This document shows positions 42,424-58,429 of a stretch of 64,000 nucleotides of DNA, piece after piece. The stretch comes from a virus. Position numbers and translations under genes: made by a program. The stretch lies in the IMG/VR virus record IMGVR_UViG_3300033233_000004, positions 32,001-96,000 of that record. One strand, written 5' to 3'. Under the pieces are notes generated by a model. It did not search any database and was not told the DNA's origin. It saw nothing but the letters and a program-made list of their open reading frames with translations. The number at the start of each line of letters is the position of its first letter. Within the stretch, counting starts at the first letter, position 1.

Positions 42424-43557
42424 TTATAATTGTTCAGACCAATGAATTATACTATAACTTCCAAGACCATCTAATGTAGCTGCATAAACTTTATACCAAG
42501 CACCCGGTGGAATAATAGCCGTTAGTTGTTGATATGATGAGTATGCTTCAGTTGTTGCTGAGTCTTTAGATAATGATGTATGACCAAGAATAATAATGTC
42601 ATTATTATTAAATGAAGAGTCCACACGGTCAACATAAATAGCAGCTTCAATTGTATGTGGTGCTGCTGTAGCCACGGTTAGTAATTCGATAGATACAGAC
42701 AAAAACATACTTCCGCTTGCTGTATTTTGATAAACAGTGTTTAAAGCCCTATTACCTTCATTGCCTGCCGGGTGTCCTACATTTTTATGAATAACTGTAC
42801 TAAGAATACTTCCTGAAACTAAATCGCTTAGTACCATTCCATGAGGATTTGTAGTAGAAGGAGTACCAGTACCTACTGCTGTTATATGTTGTTCTACTGT
42901 ACTAAGTGATGGAACAGGAGAATTTTTCACCAATGTAGATTCTGCCATAGCCCATGGACGTGCCCACTCTCGTTTATCTTGGAATGTGCCTGCCGTAATA
43001 AGATTACCGTTTGCAGTAAATTGTGCAAGAGGAATCTGATTAGAACCTGATGGATAAGTATCAGAAACACGAATAAGAAAATCGCCAGTATATCGCTTAT
43101 AATATATGTTTCCACTACTATCATTACCTACCGATGAAGACATTTCTTGGTATTCTGCTGTTACATATGCTGGTTGACCATCAGTGAGTGTTCCCCATAT
43201 ACGATGAAAATCATTATCTCCTTGATTGATAGTAATCGACCCTGTAAGAATACAAATGTCTGCATTGTCAGTAATACCCCATCCTCTTTGAATACTAATT
43301 TGAGAAAGAGAACCTGTAATTGGAAGAAGGTAATCCGAATTAAACCCCCCACCAATACCTCTGTACGAAAATGGATTTGGGGTTTGATCTGCTAACGTTT
43401 GTTGTATGATAGTTGCAATAGAACCTGTATATTGATGTGAAAACTTTGCAAGCATAAATGCAAATTGTTGTCGTATAGCACTTGCTCGTGATTGTTCGGT
43501 ATTATTCAAATCCGATTCATTAACTCTCATATCTGGAAAATATAGTGTTTTGTTCAT
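42424..43557 (-). CDS. putative tail/baseplate structural protein
   Basis: Last gene of the tail module; Ser/Thr/Gly-rich; NPHG and RALNTVYQNT fibre-like motifs. Confidence 0.6.
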   Translation of the reverse strand: MNKTLYFPDMRVNESDLNNTEQSRASAIRQQFAFMLAKFSHQYTGSIATIIQQTLADQTPNPFSYRGIGGGFNSDYLLPITGSLSQISIQRGWGITDNADICILTGSITINQGDNDFHRIWGTLTDGQPAYVTAEYQEMSSSVGNDSSGNIYYKRYTGDFLIRVSDTYPSGSNQIPLAQFTANGNLITAGTFQDKREWARPWAMAESTLVKNSPVPSLSTVEQHITAVGTGTPSTTNPHGMVLSDLVSGSILSTVIHKNVGHPAGNEGNRALNTVYQNTASGSMFLSVSIELLTVATAAPHTIEAAIYVDRVDSSFNNNDIIILGHTSLSKDSATTEAYSSYQQLTAIIPPGAWYKVYAATLDGLGSYSIIHWSEQL

Positions 43558-43568
43558 GACGTTTCCTT

Positions 43569-44660
43569 TTATGTTGATGAAACAATAACTTGTCCAGCTT
43601 GTTGTCCCGAACTACCAGACGTTCCAATAAAAATGGGAAGAGCATATAAATCTGTAAGCCTTGTATCAAATATAGAAGCACTCGTGTTTTGTAATCCTCG
43701 AATGGAGAACTGGTGCAATTCAAACTCATTACTACCACTGGCAAATATAGTGAAACGAGCTTGGTGGAATGGGTAGTACGAACCTGATGGCATACCAAGA
43801 TATCTTAATCGTTCTTTTGTTAGATTATAGTTGTATTTCGTTTGATTCTCGTTCAATGTTCCGGCGTAGATAACAAACTCATCGACAAACATATTTTCAC
43901 CGTGACGTACATTGAAAGGCACACTTGCTGATGCTATTCCACCAGTATATGCTGTAAAACCTTGTTGAACTCCATCTATATACAGAAATAATCCAGACCC
44001 ATGAATAAAGGAGCCTGCGAAGTAATGATAGTTAGGCGGGAACCCACTCTCTAACAACAAAGGAGCTATGGATGCAGTAACAACTCCTGATATAGATGCT
44101 GAACCAACAGTAAATCGAATGTACTGTCCTGCAAAATCAAATTCCACGGCATAACCCTGTCCGGTAGACCCTGTACGAATAAACGATAAATATGAAGTAA
44201 ATGGAGAATTATCTACATTAGTTGTAGTATTATCTATACCATAAATGTAAGTTTCCCATGCAAAACTCACATTGTCAAAAGCAAGACTTGGTAATGAGGC
44301 TGTAGCAGATAGATTGTATCCCGTACTACCACCGCCCAAAACAAGAATATTATCTCTACGAGAACAACATAGATTGTTAGTTTCAACTGATGTCTTAGAA
44401 TTAATCAATGTAGCTTGATTACCAGAAATGTCATATACTGATTGTGTTGGATGATTAACGGCAAATGTCCAATGTCCTCGAACTGACCCATCTGTTGCCA
44501 GATTTAAAAGAGGAATCGGGAATATGGGGTCATATCTCTTCCAAGGAATTGAATCTGGAATGGACTGACTATTGTACTGTCGAACCTCTACAGTATAATA
44601 AGCATCGTTCTTGGCTATTGCTGCCCAATCATAAAACCAATTGTAAGATATCGAAGCCAT
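43569..44660 (-). CDS. virion protein with LamG/concanavalin-like lectin domain
   Basis: YHYFAGSF...LYIDGV...VDEFVIY...L pattern. Confidence 0.65.
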   Translation of the reverse strand: MASISYNWFYDWAAIAKNDAYYTVEVRQYNSQSIPDSIPWKRYDPIFPIPLLNLATDGSVRGHWTFAVNHPTQSVYDISGNQATLINSKTSVETNNLCCSRRDNILVLGGGSTGYNLSATASLPSLAFDNVSFAWETYIYGIDNTTTNVDNSPFTSYLSFIRTGSTGQGYAVEFDFAGQYIRFTVGSASISGVVTASIAPLLLESGFPPNYHYFAGSFIHGSGLFLYIDGVQQGFTAYTGGIASASVPFNVRHGENMFVDEFVIYAGTLNENQTKYNYNLTKERLRYLGMPSGSYYPFHQARFTIFASGSNEFELHQFSIRGLQNTSASIFDTRLTDLYALPIFIGTSGSSGQQAGQVIVSST

Positions 44661-57231: not shown

Positions 57232-58083
57232 TTATACACCCCGAAAAATGAAACCTTTTGAGATAGCTATGCCCTCTCCTGTACCACTTGCCGAAGCATT
57301 TGCAACGGCGCATTGAACTCCTATACTTGATCCTGTTACTGGAAGAGAACCCGTAACTACTGCTGAAAATATTCCTGCTCTTGTTATTTGTGTTGATGTT
57401 GCAGGATTCCCTGTTATTCTAAATACTTGTATAGTATATTGAGTGGAGGCTGGATTGAATTCTATTAACAAATCAATCATGTCATTTGTATTTCTTGGTA
57501 GTAATGTTAATTCTGTTTTAACAGCATTTCCACTTGCCCCGTTATAATACAAACTCCAATTACCACTTGCTAAGTCGGCATTGTCGTACCCTATCCCAAA
57601 CAGATTCGTAGAACCGGAAGGATCAGTAGCCATGGTTGCGCCTTGAAACGCCACATTAGCCATAGCTCCAATACCTACAAAGGCTCTCGTATTATTCTTA
57701 TTAGTTGTTTTTCCAAATCTCAAGAATACCTTGTATTTTGTAAAATGTGCATACTGCGTAAGTGGTATACTACCGGAGGAACGAATACCAGTACCTGTAT
57801 TTGCCGTAGTTGCTGAAACAAATTGAGCATATGAAAATATATCTCTGGCCTGTGCCGGTGCTGCTGTAGGAGACACAAAAGTTTCAGTTCCAAATTTTAC
57901 TGTAGACGCATTAATCCAATTGGCTGCGAAAGTAGATGCACCTAATACTACGCGAGGCGACAATAGGGCATATGCTCCAGAAGTACTGAATGGGTTGTAA
58001 TTGGTGTTGGATAACGTAATGTCATTTGGATTTTGTACGACATCAATATCAGAGCCTACAAGCGAACGAAAGTTAACAGCCAT
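57232..58083 (-). CDS. putative fibre head / receptor-binding module, paralogue 1
   Basis: 283 aa tandem duplicate. Confidence 0.65.
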   Translation of the reverse strand: MAVNFRSLVGSDIDVVQNPNDITLSNTNYNPFSTSGAYALLSPRVVLGASTFAANWINASTVKFGTETFVSPTAAPAQARDIFSYAQFVSATTANTGTGIRSSGSIPLTQYAHFTKYKVFLRFGKTTNKNNTRAFVGIGAMANVAFQGATMATDPSGSTNLFGIGYDNADLASGNWSLYYNGASGNAVKTELTLLPRNTNDMIDLLIEFNPASTQYTIQVFRITGNPATSTQITRAGIFSAVVTGSLPVTGSSIGVQCAVANASASGTGEGIAISKGFIFRGV

Positions 58084-58096
58084 ATTAGTTTAATCC

Positions 58097-58429
58097 TTAC
58101 GTTGACCCGCTATAAATTTGTGCGCCACCGCCCACATTTTGAAACGTGATTGCCAAGTCCAATTTAATATCATTGGCATTTTGAATTATGCTTATGTTGT
58201 TACTTCCACTTGTTAAGGTCTTAAACTGTAAATCGGTACCAACCTTTTGTAAAAAAATTCCAGCACCAGTACCAACATTAACACCTGTTGTTCTTCCACC
58301 AATAAGGTCTGATATAACCTGTAAACTGATTTTTTCAGTAACACCATTAATTACAATTGGTAGATAAGCCTGAGCCGGGTCTACAGATGCAGAAGTAAGT
58401 TGTTCTGGTAATTGAGAAATTTTTGGCAT
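58097..58429 (-). CDS. short fibre N-terminal/adaptor protein
   Basis: MPKISQLP...LPIV..G.T.KIS N-terminus typical of phage fibres, then one and a half NVGxGA repeats. Confidence 0.6.
   Translation of the reverse strand: MPKISQLPEQLTSASVDPAQAYLPIVINGVTEKISLQVISDLIGGRTTGVNVGTGAGIFLQKVGTDLQFKTLTSGSNNISIIQNANDIKLDLAITFQNVGGGAQIYSGST

What the first reader, a model, noticed from the sequence alone, without database searches (positions are those of the whole stretch)
42424..58429. [S/T]-G-S motif saturates outer virion proteins: candidate sequon for a phage glycan shield
Seen (counted by eye): [S/T]GS occurs 14 times in the 755-aa fibre, 7 in the 321-aa wedge, 6 in the 377-aa protein, 4 (plus 5 [S/T]AS) in the 363-aa LamG protein, 3 in the 420-aa protein and repeatedly in the fibre heads, across unrelated folds. 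I found none in PolA (747 aa), the ThDP enzyme (612 aa), the hub (723 aa) or the visible tape measure, which is buried in the tail tube. The same genome encodes eight cytoplasmic GT domains and a rare-sugar pathway. Inference: the motif is a selected O-glycosylation acceptor site, and island plus sequon form a writer/target system coating exposed virion surfaces with a branched, methylated glycan (protection, adhesion or host-surface mimicry).
Basis: partly seen in the sequence, partly recalled or inferred. Interest (0 to 1): 0.88.

Follow-up and report, generated by a model that had tools for sequence, protein, structure and literature searches.

The report
Serine tag tracking a phage sugar-transferase pair
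The outer tail, neck and fibre proteins of this 172-kb uncultured phage carry the short motif Ser/Thr-Gly-Ser-hydrophobic far more often than chance, and in other phages the excess appears only where a conserved pair of sugar-transferase genes is present, so it is probably an undescribed sugar-attachment code for phage particles, though no sugar has been shown.

Summary
Observation confirmed. In 22 virion ORFs, SGS occurs 46 times against 6 expected and TGS 25 against 6. SGT and TGT sit at chance, and [ST]GS followed by a hydrophobic residue is 13-fold enriched. The rest of the genome is at expectation. Codons vary, so selection acts on the protein.

Interpretation largely supported by comparison, but not proven. 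Two adjacent GT4 genes, GT-A (window 37129-38364) and GT-B (34673-37114, split by an intein), occur in more than 580 viral contigs. Ten phages or contigs with the pair show 2.9-5.7-fold [ST]GS excess in Ser/Thr-rich proteins. Nine without it show 0.4-1.7-fold. The pair-bearing set includes three cultured phages and spans about four lineages whose structural genes are unrelated to this one's.

A 484-kb relative lacks GT-B. Its sheath, 42-50% identical to the others, has 0 motifs against their 4-7. In 78 sheaths the motif is confined to the outer domains.

The major capsid protein carries none, so this is not a whole-virion coat. One phage with GT-B has a motif-free sheath. No chemical evidence exists.

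This scan earlier noted a similar Ser/Thr-Gly-Ser/Thr tag on other phage DNA.

The parts
45939..48206 (-). 755-aa tail fibre, 14 [ST]GS motifs against 2.2 expected. Seven of them lie in short V-[ST]-G-S-V-N hexad runs.
   Evidence: PHROG tail fibre families
48643..49608 (-). 321-aa virion protein of no known family, 7 motifs against 0.46 expected. The position-3 Ser is kept in 95% of homologues.
42424..43557 (-). 377-aa distal virion protein, 6 motifs against 0.66 expected.
43569..44660 (-). 363-aa virion protein, 4 motifs against 0.72 expected.
44661..45923 (-). 420-aa virion structural protein (phrog_1645), 3 motifs. Homologues in cyanophage-like contigs have D-N-N or other residues at two of the three sites.
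50971..52374 (-). 467-aa baseplate J-like wedge protein, 2 motifs.
54886..58429 (-). Three paralogous fibre-head proteins (276, 283 and 283 aa) and a 110-aa protein, with 3, 3, 4 and 2 motifs.
49713..50924 (-). TnpB/IS605 transposase inside the virion module, 0 motifs. It serves as an internal negative control.
59080..64000 (-). 723-aa hub, a 283-aa protein and the tape-measure-like ORF, all buried tail parts, with 0 motifs against about 1.2 expected.
37129..38364 (-). GT-A, a 411-aa GT4 glycosyltransferase with an intact E-X7-E region. Homologues occur in more than 580 viral contigs.
34673..37114 (-). GT-B, an 813-aa GT4 partner interrupted by a LAGLIDADG intein (about 35051-36247) placed inside the catalytic G-E-G-x...E motif. 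Of all ORFs in this genome, its family best tracks motif enrichment.
32680..34623 (-). 647-aa GT2+GT4 fusion, the third gene of the cassette in 48 of 80 loci.
16739..32536 (-). Variable sugar island: NDP-sugar dehydratase, DegT aminotransferase, ThDP enzyme, ketopantoate-hydroxymethyltransferase-like protein, three epimerase/reductases, B12-radical-SAM enzyme, two methyltransferases, a GT2 (26675-27409) and a GT4 (31589-32536).

Best explanation
[S/T]-G-S-hydrophobic is most likely an acceptor signal for O-glycosylation of the position-3 serine. The proposed writer is a soluble, phage-encoded GT4 pair, GT-A and GT-B, which probably form a heterodimer. They would act in the host cytoplasm on folded or folding outer-tail proteins: the sheath outer domains, a neck protein's beta-sandwich insert, peripheral baseplate proteins and fibres. 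The third cassette enzyme and the variable sugar island would then extend and diversify the glycan.

Shown: the motif, its specificity, its conservation, its restriction to exposed parts, and its co-occurrence with the GT pair.

Inferred: that the serine is modified at all, that the modification is a sugar, and that the pair is the writer.
For: 1. Sharp, asymmetric motif. SGS is 7.7x and TGS 4.3x enriched, while SGT and TGT are 0.7-0.8x. With a hydrophobic residue next, the excess is 13x. Selection is at the protein level.

2. Purifying selection. The position-3 Ser is kept in 0.82-0.95 of homologues, against 0.42-0.48 for other Ser residues (P=0.003 and 0.0008). Position 1 swaps freely between S and T.

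3. Exposure. The own sheath has 7 motifs, all in the non-conserved half. Across 78 immuto-type sheaths the outer part has 437 observed against 80 expected, and the core has 8 against 14.6. In the 362-aa neck-type protein all 6 motifs lie in the beta-sandwich insert, at turn-to-strand junctions. Hub, tape measure, the tube-like ORFs downstream of the sheath, terminase and TnpB have none.

4. Co-occurrence, measured in proteins of at least 150 aa with S+T of at least 16%. With the pair: own 5.5, G002 5.7, immuto 3.3, Mel-JY01 4.6, G003 4.3, G006 4.4, G009 4.5, RM378 3.7, G005 3.0, G007 2.9. Without the pair: LR756508 1.3, S-CBS4 1.3, TJE1 0.4, S-EIVl 1.6, T4 1.0, S-RIM12 1.5, Ma-LMM01 1.0, phi38:1 1.7, phi17:2 1.6. 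Eighty control structural loci pooled give 1.48, equal to [ST]GT at 1.45.

5. No detectable structural homology between this phage and the other pair-bearing phages. Of 189 own ORFs, GT-B is the best discriminator: 7 of 8 enriched genomes by BLAST (8 of 8 with an HMM) and 0 of 9 non-enriched.

6. Natural knock-out. LR756508 has GT-A only; an HMM search of the whole 484 kb found no GT-B. It has 0, 0, 2, 3, 0 and 1 motifs where the Mel-JY01 orthologues have 4, 4, 11, 4, 5 and 6.

7. A complete 191-kb genome with the pair (G066) has 11, 4 and 8 motifs against 1.3, 0.6 and 0.5 expected.

8. The GT-A and GT-B ORFs as called often overlap by 4 nt. Both keep E-X7-E. None of the GTs has a membrane segment.

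9. The complex model supports binding but does not show it. Score 0.83, best of 3 controls 0.01. This mark was reached by 58 of 80 solved complexes and 2 of 110 mismatched pairs; these counts hold only roughly because my own alignments were used. The runs share at least 96% of contacts and partner pLDDT is at least 91. A two-protein GT complex of this general kind (GtfA-GtfB) has been solved, so the pass may reflect likeness.

10. No thymidylate-synthase-like hydroxymethylase in the complete genome, which argues against DNA as the target.
Against: - There is no chemical evidence of any modification.
- The pair-bearing genomes fall into only about four lineages. Immuto, Mel-JY01, G003, G006 and G009 share 5-57 proteins pairwise, so the effective sample is small.
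- G063 has GT-B, yet its sheath has 0 motifs. Its other virion genes were not on the fragment.
- The major capsid protein of this phage has 0 motifs and immuto's has 1, so exposure alone does not predict the motif.
- The motif sits at turn-to-strand junctions and in hexad repeats of the fibre. This is also what a purely structural motif would look like.
- G005 and G007 show only moderate genome-wide excess, 1.5-1.6x.
- The TET/JBP search was uninformative because the control did not ring.
Confidence: 0.55

Rival explanations
1. The motif is purely structural: a turn followed by the start of a beta strand, favoured in the beta-rich outer domains of certain phage lineages. Its association with the GT pair would then reflect shared ancestry or shared habitat, not a writer-target relation.
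For: The motif lies at loop-to-strand junctions and is followed by hydrophobic residues. It forms V-[ST]-G-S-V-N hexads in the fibre. Its positions are strongly conserved. Control structural loci show a mild general [ST]G[ST] excess of 1.45-1.48x. One phage with GT-B has a motif-free sheath.
Against: T4, cyanophage, Ma-LMM01 and Cellulophaga phage structural proteins lack the excess. In the conserved 420-aa fold other phages use D-N-N at the same turn. Orthologous sheaths at 42-50% identity carry 0 or 4-7 motifs according to GT-B presence. This phage's structural module is unrelated to those of the other enriched phages.
Confidence: 0.2
2. The motif is a tag read by some other trans-acting factor. 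This could be a different modification of the serine, such as phosphorylation or acylation, or a docking site for an assembly chaperone or decoration protein. The GT pair would then act on another substrate, such as host envelope glycans or DNA.
For: The motif behaves like a selected recognition site, but nothing identifies the chemistry. Phage GTs are known to modify DNA and host antigens (PMC12619734, bioRxiv 10.1101/2023.12.21.572611).
Against: No other own-genome protein family tracks the enrichment. After GT-B, GT-A and the third GT, the next best profiles are sugar-nucleotide enzymes. There is no ThyA-like hydroxymethylase. The GT cassette lies about 4 kb from the fibre genes in this clade.
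Confidence: 0.15
3. The excess is an artefact of Ser, Thr and Gly richness, low-complexity repeats or recent domain duplication.
For: The virion proteins are rich in Ser (11%), Thr (9%) and Gly (8-12%). Collagen-like G-X-Y proteins in Mel-JY01 and G005 inflate raw counts.
Against: Global and local shuffles both leave 6-13x excess. SGT, TGT, GSG and SSS are at chance. Only the three fibre heads are paralogous. Low-complexity proteins were excluded from all comparisons.
Confidence: 0.02

Closest known systems
Virion glycosylation of mycobacteriophages by phage-encoded glycosyltransferases (Freeman et al. 2023, as described in PMC12619734)
   Same: Phage-encoded cytoplasmic GTs are proposed to decorate virion proteins. 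The glycan is thought to shield the particle.
   Different: In mycobacteriophages the glycans sit on C-terminal tails of the capsid and tail-tube subunits and were shown chemically. Here the candidate sites are internal [ST]-G-S-hydrophobic motifs on sheath outer domains, neck, baseplate and fibres. The capsid protein has none, and nothing has been shown chemically.
GtfA-GtfB two-protein O-glycosyltransferase of serine-rich repeat adhesins of Gram-positive bacteria (review PMC6973325)
   Same: Two adjacent GT-B-fold proteins are predicted to form a complex. Glycosylation of serines would be cytoplasmic and happen before the protein reaches the outside. Further GTs would extend the glycan.
   Different: No sequence match to GtfA or GtfB among solved structures. 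Both phage proteins keep the catalytic E-X7-E, whereas GtfB is a non-catalytic partner (my own knowledge). The targets are folded virion proteins with a discrete motif, not long Ser-rich repeats.
Short O-glycosylation sequons of bacteria: Bacteroidota D-(S/T)-(A/I/L/V/M/T) (my own knowledge) and the G-(T/S)-X proposal for the methylated O-glycan of the Kuenenia stuttgartiensis S-layer (PMC5088730)
   Same: A three- or four-residue signal with Gly before the acceptor Ser and a hydrophobic residue after it. Many sites per surface protein. Methylated sugars are likely.
   Different: Those systems act outside the cytoplasm on secreted proteins and use other enzymes. This motif requires Ser, not Thr, at the acceptor position and S/T two residues before it.
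Chlorovirus PBCV-1 capsid glycosylation by virus-encoded cytoplasmic GTs (my own knowledge). The chlorovirus NY-2A GT B736L is among the closest solved relatives of GT-A (3oy2).
   Same: A virus-encoded sugar pathway and soluble GTs, a non-canonical virus-specific sequon, and methylated rare sugars.
   Different: That system makes N-linked glycans on the major capsid protein of a eukaryotic virus. Here the candidates are O-linked sites on phage tail parts.

Membership tests
GT4 glycosyltransferases (Pfam Glycos_transf_1 / Glyco_trans_1_4; GT-B fold) | Pfam match above the curated cut-off | tested here: met
   GT-A scores 47.4 bits against a cut-off of 26.4. The GT2+GT4 fusion and the 315-aa GT4 also pass. 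GT-B passes only weakly on its N-extein (24.8 against 28.5) because the intein splits it.
GT4 glycosyltransferases (Pfam Glycos_transf_1 / Glyco_trans_1_4; GT-B fold) | Conserved E-X7-E catalytic motif | tested here: met
   GT-A has invariant N-E-G-x-G...E. The GT-B family has invariant E268, G269, G271 and E276. The own GT-B reads G-E-G-Y / intein / C-R-P-L-A-E.
Mycobacteriophage-type virion glycosylation | Phage-encoded GT genes in the genome | tested here: met
   Six GT domains in five ORFs.
Mycobacteriophage-type virion glycosylation | Acceptor sites on C-terminal tails of the capsid and tail-tube subunits | tested here: not met
   The major capsid protein (phrog_2522) has 0 motifs, and so do the ORFs between the sheath and tape-measure genes, where a tube gene would lie. 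The motifs are internal.
Mycobacteriophage-type virion glycosylation | Glycan on virion proteins shown by mass spectrometry or glycan staining | not testable with these tools
   This needs purified virions. Immuto, Mel-JY01 and RM378 are cultured candidates.
GtfA-GtfB-type two-protein O-glycosyltransferase | Two GT-B-fold proteins that form a complex | tested here: inconclusive
   The model supports binding but does not show it. Score 0.83, best control 0.01. The mark was reached by 58 of 80 solved complexes and 2 of 110 mismatched pairs. At least 96% of contacts are shared between runs and partner pLDDT is at least 91.
GtfA-GtfB-type two-protein O-glycosyltransferase | Sequence relationship to GtfA or GtfB | tested here: not met
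   The best solved matches are trehalose synthase TreT and chlorovirus B736L. No GtfA or GtfB match was found.
GtfA-GtfB-type two-protein O-glycosyltransferase | One partner is catalytically inactive | tested here: not met
   Both families keep E-X7-E.
DNA-glycosylating phage GTs (T4 alpha/beta-GT; 5hmC hypermodification clusters, bioRxiv 10.1101/2023.12.21.572611) | Hydroxymethyl-pyrimidine pathway (ThyA-like hydroxymethylase, or C5-MT plus TET/JBP) in the genome, usually next to the GT | tested here: not met
   No PF00303 match in the complete genome, and the control rang in 10 of 14 genomes. The PF12851 search was uninformative. The GT neighbours are sugar-nucleotide enzymes and fibre genes.
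Sequon-directed protein glycosylation (general) | A short motif enriched on the target proteins and absent from non-targets | tested here: met
Sequon-directed protein glycosylation (general) | The motif depends on presence of the transferase across genomes | tested here: met
   Complete separation of 10 genomes with the pair from 9 without it. There is a natural knock-out and one sheath-only exception.

The most novel reading that the evidence does not exclude
A widespread, sequon-directed virion O-glycosylation system exists in large aquatic phages. A heterodimeric GT4 writer (GT-A/GT-B, in more than 580 viral contigs) marks the serine of [S/T]-G-S-hydrophobic on exposed tail, neck and fibre domains. 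Swappable sugar-pathway islands set the glycan. The motif arises convergently in unrelated structural modules after the pair is acquired and decays after it is lost. This would be the first defined glycosylation code for bacteriophage particles.
Probability: 0.5. Interest if true: 0.88.

Novelty: new variant of a known kind. Interest (0 to 1): 0.8.

Why it matters
Glycosylated phage particles are documented for mycobacteriophages, and no acceptor rule is known there. A simple, predictable sequon tied to a recognisable gene pair would have three uses:

- Glycan-coated phages could be identified from sequence alone across metagenomes.
- It would explain why many large aquatic phages carry big sugar islands.
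- It would offer a handle for studying how phages hide from, or stick to, hosts and grazers.

It is directly testable, because three cultured phages carry both the pair and the motif: Flavobacterium phage immuto, Microcystis phage Mel-JY01 and Rhodothermus phage RM378.

Tried and rejected
- DNA-level motif: rejected. Codons are varied.
- Composition or local-composition artefact: rejected.
- Recent domain duplication: rejected. Only the three fibre heads are paralogous.
- The 321-aa protein model had pLDDT 38 and was not used.
- The 10-kb flanks of 80 GT-A loci were uninformative (pooled O/E 1.0) because they hold mostly non-structural genes. Whole contigs were therefore fetched.
- G004 and G008 carry the pair but have no structural module on the fragment, so they were left out.
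- Weak GT-A-like single genes in S-CBS4, TJE1, S-EIVl and seven control contigs (E 1e-17 to 1e-21) belong to another GT4 subgroup and do not go with enrichment.
- A single-sequence search missed the divergent RM378 partner, which a profile then found.
- PHROG and Pfam gave nothing for most motif-rich proteins.
- No close relative exists in the phage record collection.
- Literature searches found no report of this motif or of glycosylated immuto, Mel-JY01 or RM378 virions.
- The TET/JBP family search was uninformative.
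Full report
**What the window is.** The window is bases 32001-96000 of a complete 171,836-bp uncultured phage genome with terminal repeats. It is a contractile-tailed phage. Genes for a tail sheath, baseplate J protein, fibres, major head protein and large terminase are recognisable. 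It has no close relative among deposited phage records.

**The observation.** [ST]GS occurs:
- 14 times in the 755-aa fibre;
- 7 in the 321-aa protein, 6 in the 377-aa, 4 in the 363-aa and 3 in the 420-aa;
- 2-4 in each fibre-head protein;
- 0 in PolA, the ThDP enzyme, the hub, the tape-measure-like ORF and a TnpB transposase that sits inside the virion module.

Across the whole genome the motif is concentrated in these proteins plus four to six others outside the window. Those include the tail sheath (7) and a 362-aa protein next to it (6).

**The excess is real and specific.** These figures pool 22 virion ORFs.
- SGS is the most over-represented of all tripeptides: 46 observed, 6.0 expected, z=16.
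- TGS is second: 25 observed, 5.8 expected.
- SGT, TGT, GSG, SSS and SAS are at or below chance.
- With a hydrophobic residue next, the excess is 13-fold (45 against 3.4).
- Shuffling within 20-residue blocks changes nothing.
- The remaining 44,436 residues of the proteome are at expectation.
- Both serine codon families are used at both Ser positions in background proportions, so selection acts on the protein, not the DNA.
- Only the three fibre heads are paralogues, so duplication does not explain it.

**Conservation.** The motif sites are far better conserved than other serines. This was measured in homologues down to about 55% identity for the 321-aa protein and down to 36% for the 362-aa protein.
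- The position-3 Ser is kept in 0.82-0.95 of sequences, against 0.42-0.48 for other Ser (P=0.003 and 0.0008).
- Position 1 swaps freely between Ser and Thr, while position 3 almost never becomes Thr.
- In the 420-aa protein the fold is shared with cyanophage-like contigs. At two of the three motif sites of this phage, those homologues carry D-N-N or other residues. The fold therefore does not require the motif.

**Where the motif sits.**
- *Own sheath:* all 7 motifs lie in the non-conserved N-terminal half and none in the conserved core.
- *Other sheaths:* the same holds for immuto, Mel-JY01, G003 and G006. Across 78 immuto-type sheaths from viral contigs, the outer part has 437 observed against 80 expected, and the C-terminal core has 8 against 14.6.
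- *362-aa protein:* it folds with moderate confidence (pLDDT 74.5; 82-92 in the relevant part). Its nearest structural matches are neck and sheath-initiator chains of Staphylococcus phage 812, at low TM-scores (0.26-0.35). All six motifs lie in its beta-sandwich insert, four of them immediately before or at the start of a strand.
- *Capsid:* the major capsid protein has no motif. The mark belongs to outer tail, neck and fibre parts, not to every exposed surface.

**The candidate writer.** Pfam finds six glycosyltransferase domains in five ORFs, together with a sugar pathway: dehydratase, aminotransferase, ThDP enzyme, epimerases, a B12-radical-SAM enzyme and methyltransferases.
- Two adjacent GT4 genes stand out: GT-A (37129-38364) and GT-B (34673-37114).
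- GT-A homologues occur in more than 580 viral contigs. In 73 of the 80 fetched, GT-B lies next to it, and in 48 the GT2+GT4 fusion follows. The sugar-pathway genes vary.
- As called here (ORFs start at the first start codon after a stop), the two ORFs often overlap by 4 nt.
- Both keep the E-X7-E motif. None of the GTs has a membrane segment.
- In this phage GT-B is split by a LAGLIDADG intein with canonical junctions, placed exactly inside the catalytic motif.
- A complex prediction for the pair from locus L098 supports binding but does not show it. Score 0.83, best of 3 controls 0.01. The mark was reached by 58 of 80 solved complexes and 2 of 110 mismatched pairs; these counts hold only roughly because my own alignments were used. 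The runs agree in at least 96% of contacts and partner pLDDT is at least 91. The C-terminal tail of GT-A is placed on GT-B. A two-protein GT complex of this general kind has been solved, so the pass may reflect likeness.

**Co-occurrence test.** I computed [ST]GS observed/expected in proteins of at least 150 aa with S+T of at least 16% and S+T+G below 45%.

| Genomes with the pair | O/E | Genomes without the pair | O/E |
|---|---|---|---|
| this phage | 5.5 | LR756508 | 1.3 |
| G002 (close relative) | 5.7 | S-CBS4 | 1.3 |
| Flavobacterium phage immuto | 3.3 | TJE1 | 0.4 |
| Microcystis phage Mel-JY01 | 4.6 | S-EIVl | 1.6 |
| Rhodothermus phage RM378 | 3.7 | T4 | 1.0 |
| G003 | 4.3 | cyanophage S-RIM12 | 1.5 |
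| G006 | 4.4 | Ma-LMM01 | 1.0 |
| G009 | 4.5 | Cellulophaga phage phi38:1 | 1.7 |
| G005 | 3.0 | Cellulophaga phage phi17:2 | 1.6 |
| G007 | 2.9 | | |

- The two sets do not overlap.
- Eighty control loci around a widespread virion protein give 1.48, the same as [ST]GT at 1.45. This is the ordinary background for structural proteins.
- T4 gp18, gp23, gp6, gp7, gp10 and gp12 have no motif at all.
- A complete 191-kb genome with the pair (G066) shows 11, 4 and 8 motifs where 1.3, 0.6 and 0.5 are expected.

**Independence.** Immuto, Mel-JY01, G003, G006, G009 and LR756508 form one broad group sharing tens of proteins. RM378 is a distant member. G005 and G007 form another group. This phage shares only 4-11 proteins with any of them. 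None of those is structural, apart from a 56-residue fibre snippet shared with G003.

I asked which of the 189 own ORFs best separates enriched from non-enriched genomes.
- GT-B comes first: 7 of 8 enriched genomes against 0 of 9. It is 8 of 8 once the divergent RM378 partner is found by profile.
- GT-A is next: 8 of 8 against 4 of 9, the latter being weak or partial hits.
- The third GT follows.

**A natural knock-out.** LR756508 is a 484-kb relative of immuto and Mel-JY01. It has GT-A but no GT-B anywhere in its genome by profile search.
- Its structural proteins are clear orthologues; the sheath is 42-50% identical.
- Its sheath has 0 motifs against 4-7 in the others.
- Over six orthologous proteins it has 6 motifs against 34 in Mel-JY01.
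That refutation fails here.

**What weighs against.**
- Nothing shows a sugar, or any modification.
- The number of independent lineages is small, about four with the pair.
- One contig, G063, has GT-B but a sheath with no motif. Single substitutions have removed each site. Its fibre and baseplate genes are not on the fragment and I could not fetch more.
- The location at turn-to-strand junctions and the hexad repeats of the fibre are also what a structural motif would look like.
- The capsid protein is exposed but unmarked.

**Rival targets for the GTs.** DNA glycosylation normally rides on hydroxymethyl-pyrimidines (bioRxiv 10.1101/2023.12.21.572611). The complete genome has no thymidylate-synthase-like enzyme. 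The TET/JBP search was uninformative. Modification of host surface glycans cannot be excluded, but it would not explain why the motif follows GT-B.

**Comparison with what is known.**
- Mycobacteriophage virion glycosylation is the nearest precedent. It places glycans on C-terminal tails of capsid and tail-tube subunits (PMC12619734). Here the capsid protein and the tube-like ORFs downstream of the sheath carry no motif.
- The GtfA-GtfB system of serine-rich adhesins (PMC6973325) resembles the proposed mechanism: two GT-B proteins and cytoplasmic serine glycosylation. It is unrelated in sequence, and one of its partners is inactive, which is not the case here.
- A G-(T/S)-X signal was proposed for the methylated O-glycan of the Kuenenia S-layer (PMC5088730).
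- I found no paper describing this motif or glycosylated virions of the three cultured phages.
- Earlier notes of this scan report a similar Ser/Thr-Gly-Ser/Thr tag on other phage DNA without a settled link to a transferase. I treated these as leads only.

**Verdict.** The best explanation is a sequon for O-glycosylation written by the GT-A/GT-B pair, with confidence about 0.55. A lineage-specific structural motif has about 0.2, and a tag for another factor about 0.15. This is a new variant of a known kind, phage virion glycosylation. It is directly testable on cultured phages.

Noticed in passing
window 35051-36247 (-), inside 34673-37114: A LAGLIDADG intein of about 400 residues interrupts GT-B exactly within the catalytic G-E-G-x...E motif. 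The junction residues are canonical: Cys at the start, His-Asn at the end, Cys at +1. The enzyme therefore depends on protein splicing. Homologues in other contigs (388-455 aa) lack the intein.
   Followed up: partly
window 49713-50924 (-): An intact-looking TnpB/IS605 OrfB gene sits between the baseplate J gene and the 321-aa virion gene. The close relatives G001 and G002 lack it at this place.
   Followed up: partly
genome-wide, non-virion ORFs (outside the window, about genome 150-171 kb): The tripeptides ADI, DII and KTA are the most over-represented in the non-virion proteome (z about 8). This fits the recurrent K-T-A-D-I-I junction peptide of the giant ORFs noted by another reader.
   Followed up: no
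Mel-JY01 record 2-3052; G005 98469-102695: Two phages that carry the GT pair encode very long collagen-like G-X-Y proteins made almost only of Gly, Ser and Thr (GSS/GTS/GTR triplets, 1016 and 1408 aa). They are obvious further candidates for heavy serine glycosylation.
   Followed up: no
L347 (contig IMGVR_UViG_3300041583_000345, G063): This contig has GT-B (E 5e-156), but its sheath has no [ST]GS. Each site that relatives share was lost by a single substitution (SGS to LGS, KGS or ESS). It is an exception worth resolving with the rest of the genome.
   Followed up: partly
loci L099, L108, L110, L111 and others: The GT-A and GT-B ORFs as called overlap by 4 nt in many contigs. This suggests translational coupling.
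   Followed up: no
window 18899-21687 (-): A ThDP-dependent enzyme and a ketopantoate-hydroxymethyltransferase-like gene lie inside a nucleotide-sugar cluster. This hints at a branched-chain or C-hydroxymethylated sugar. Locus L102 carries 46-50% identical copies of both.
   Followed up: no
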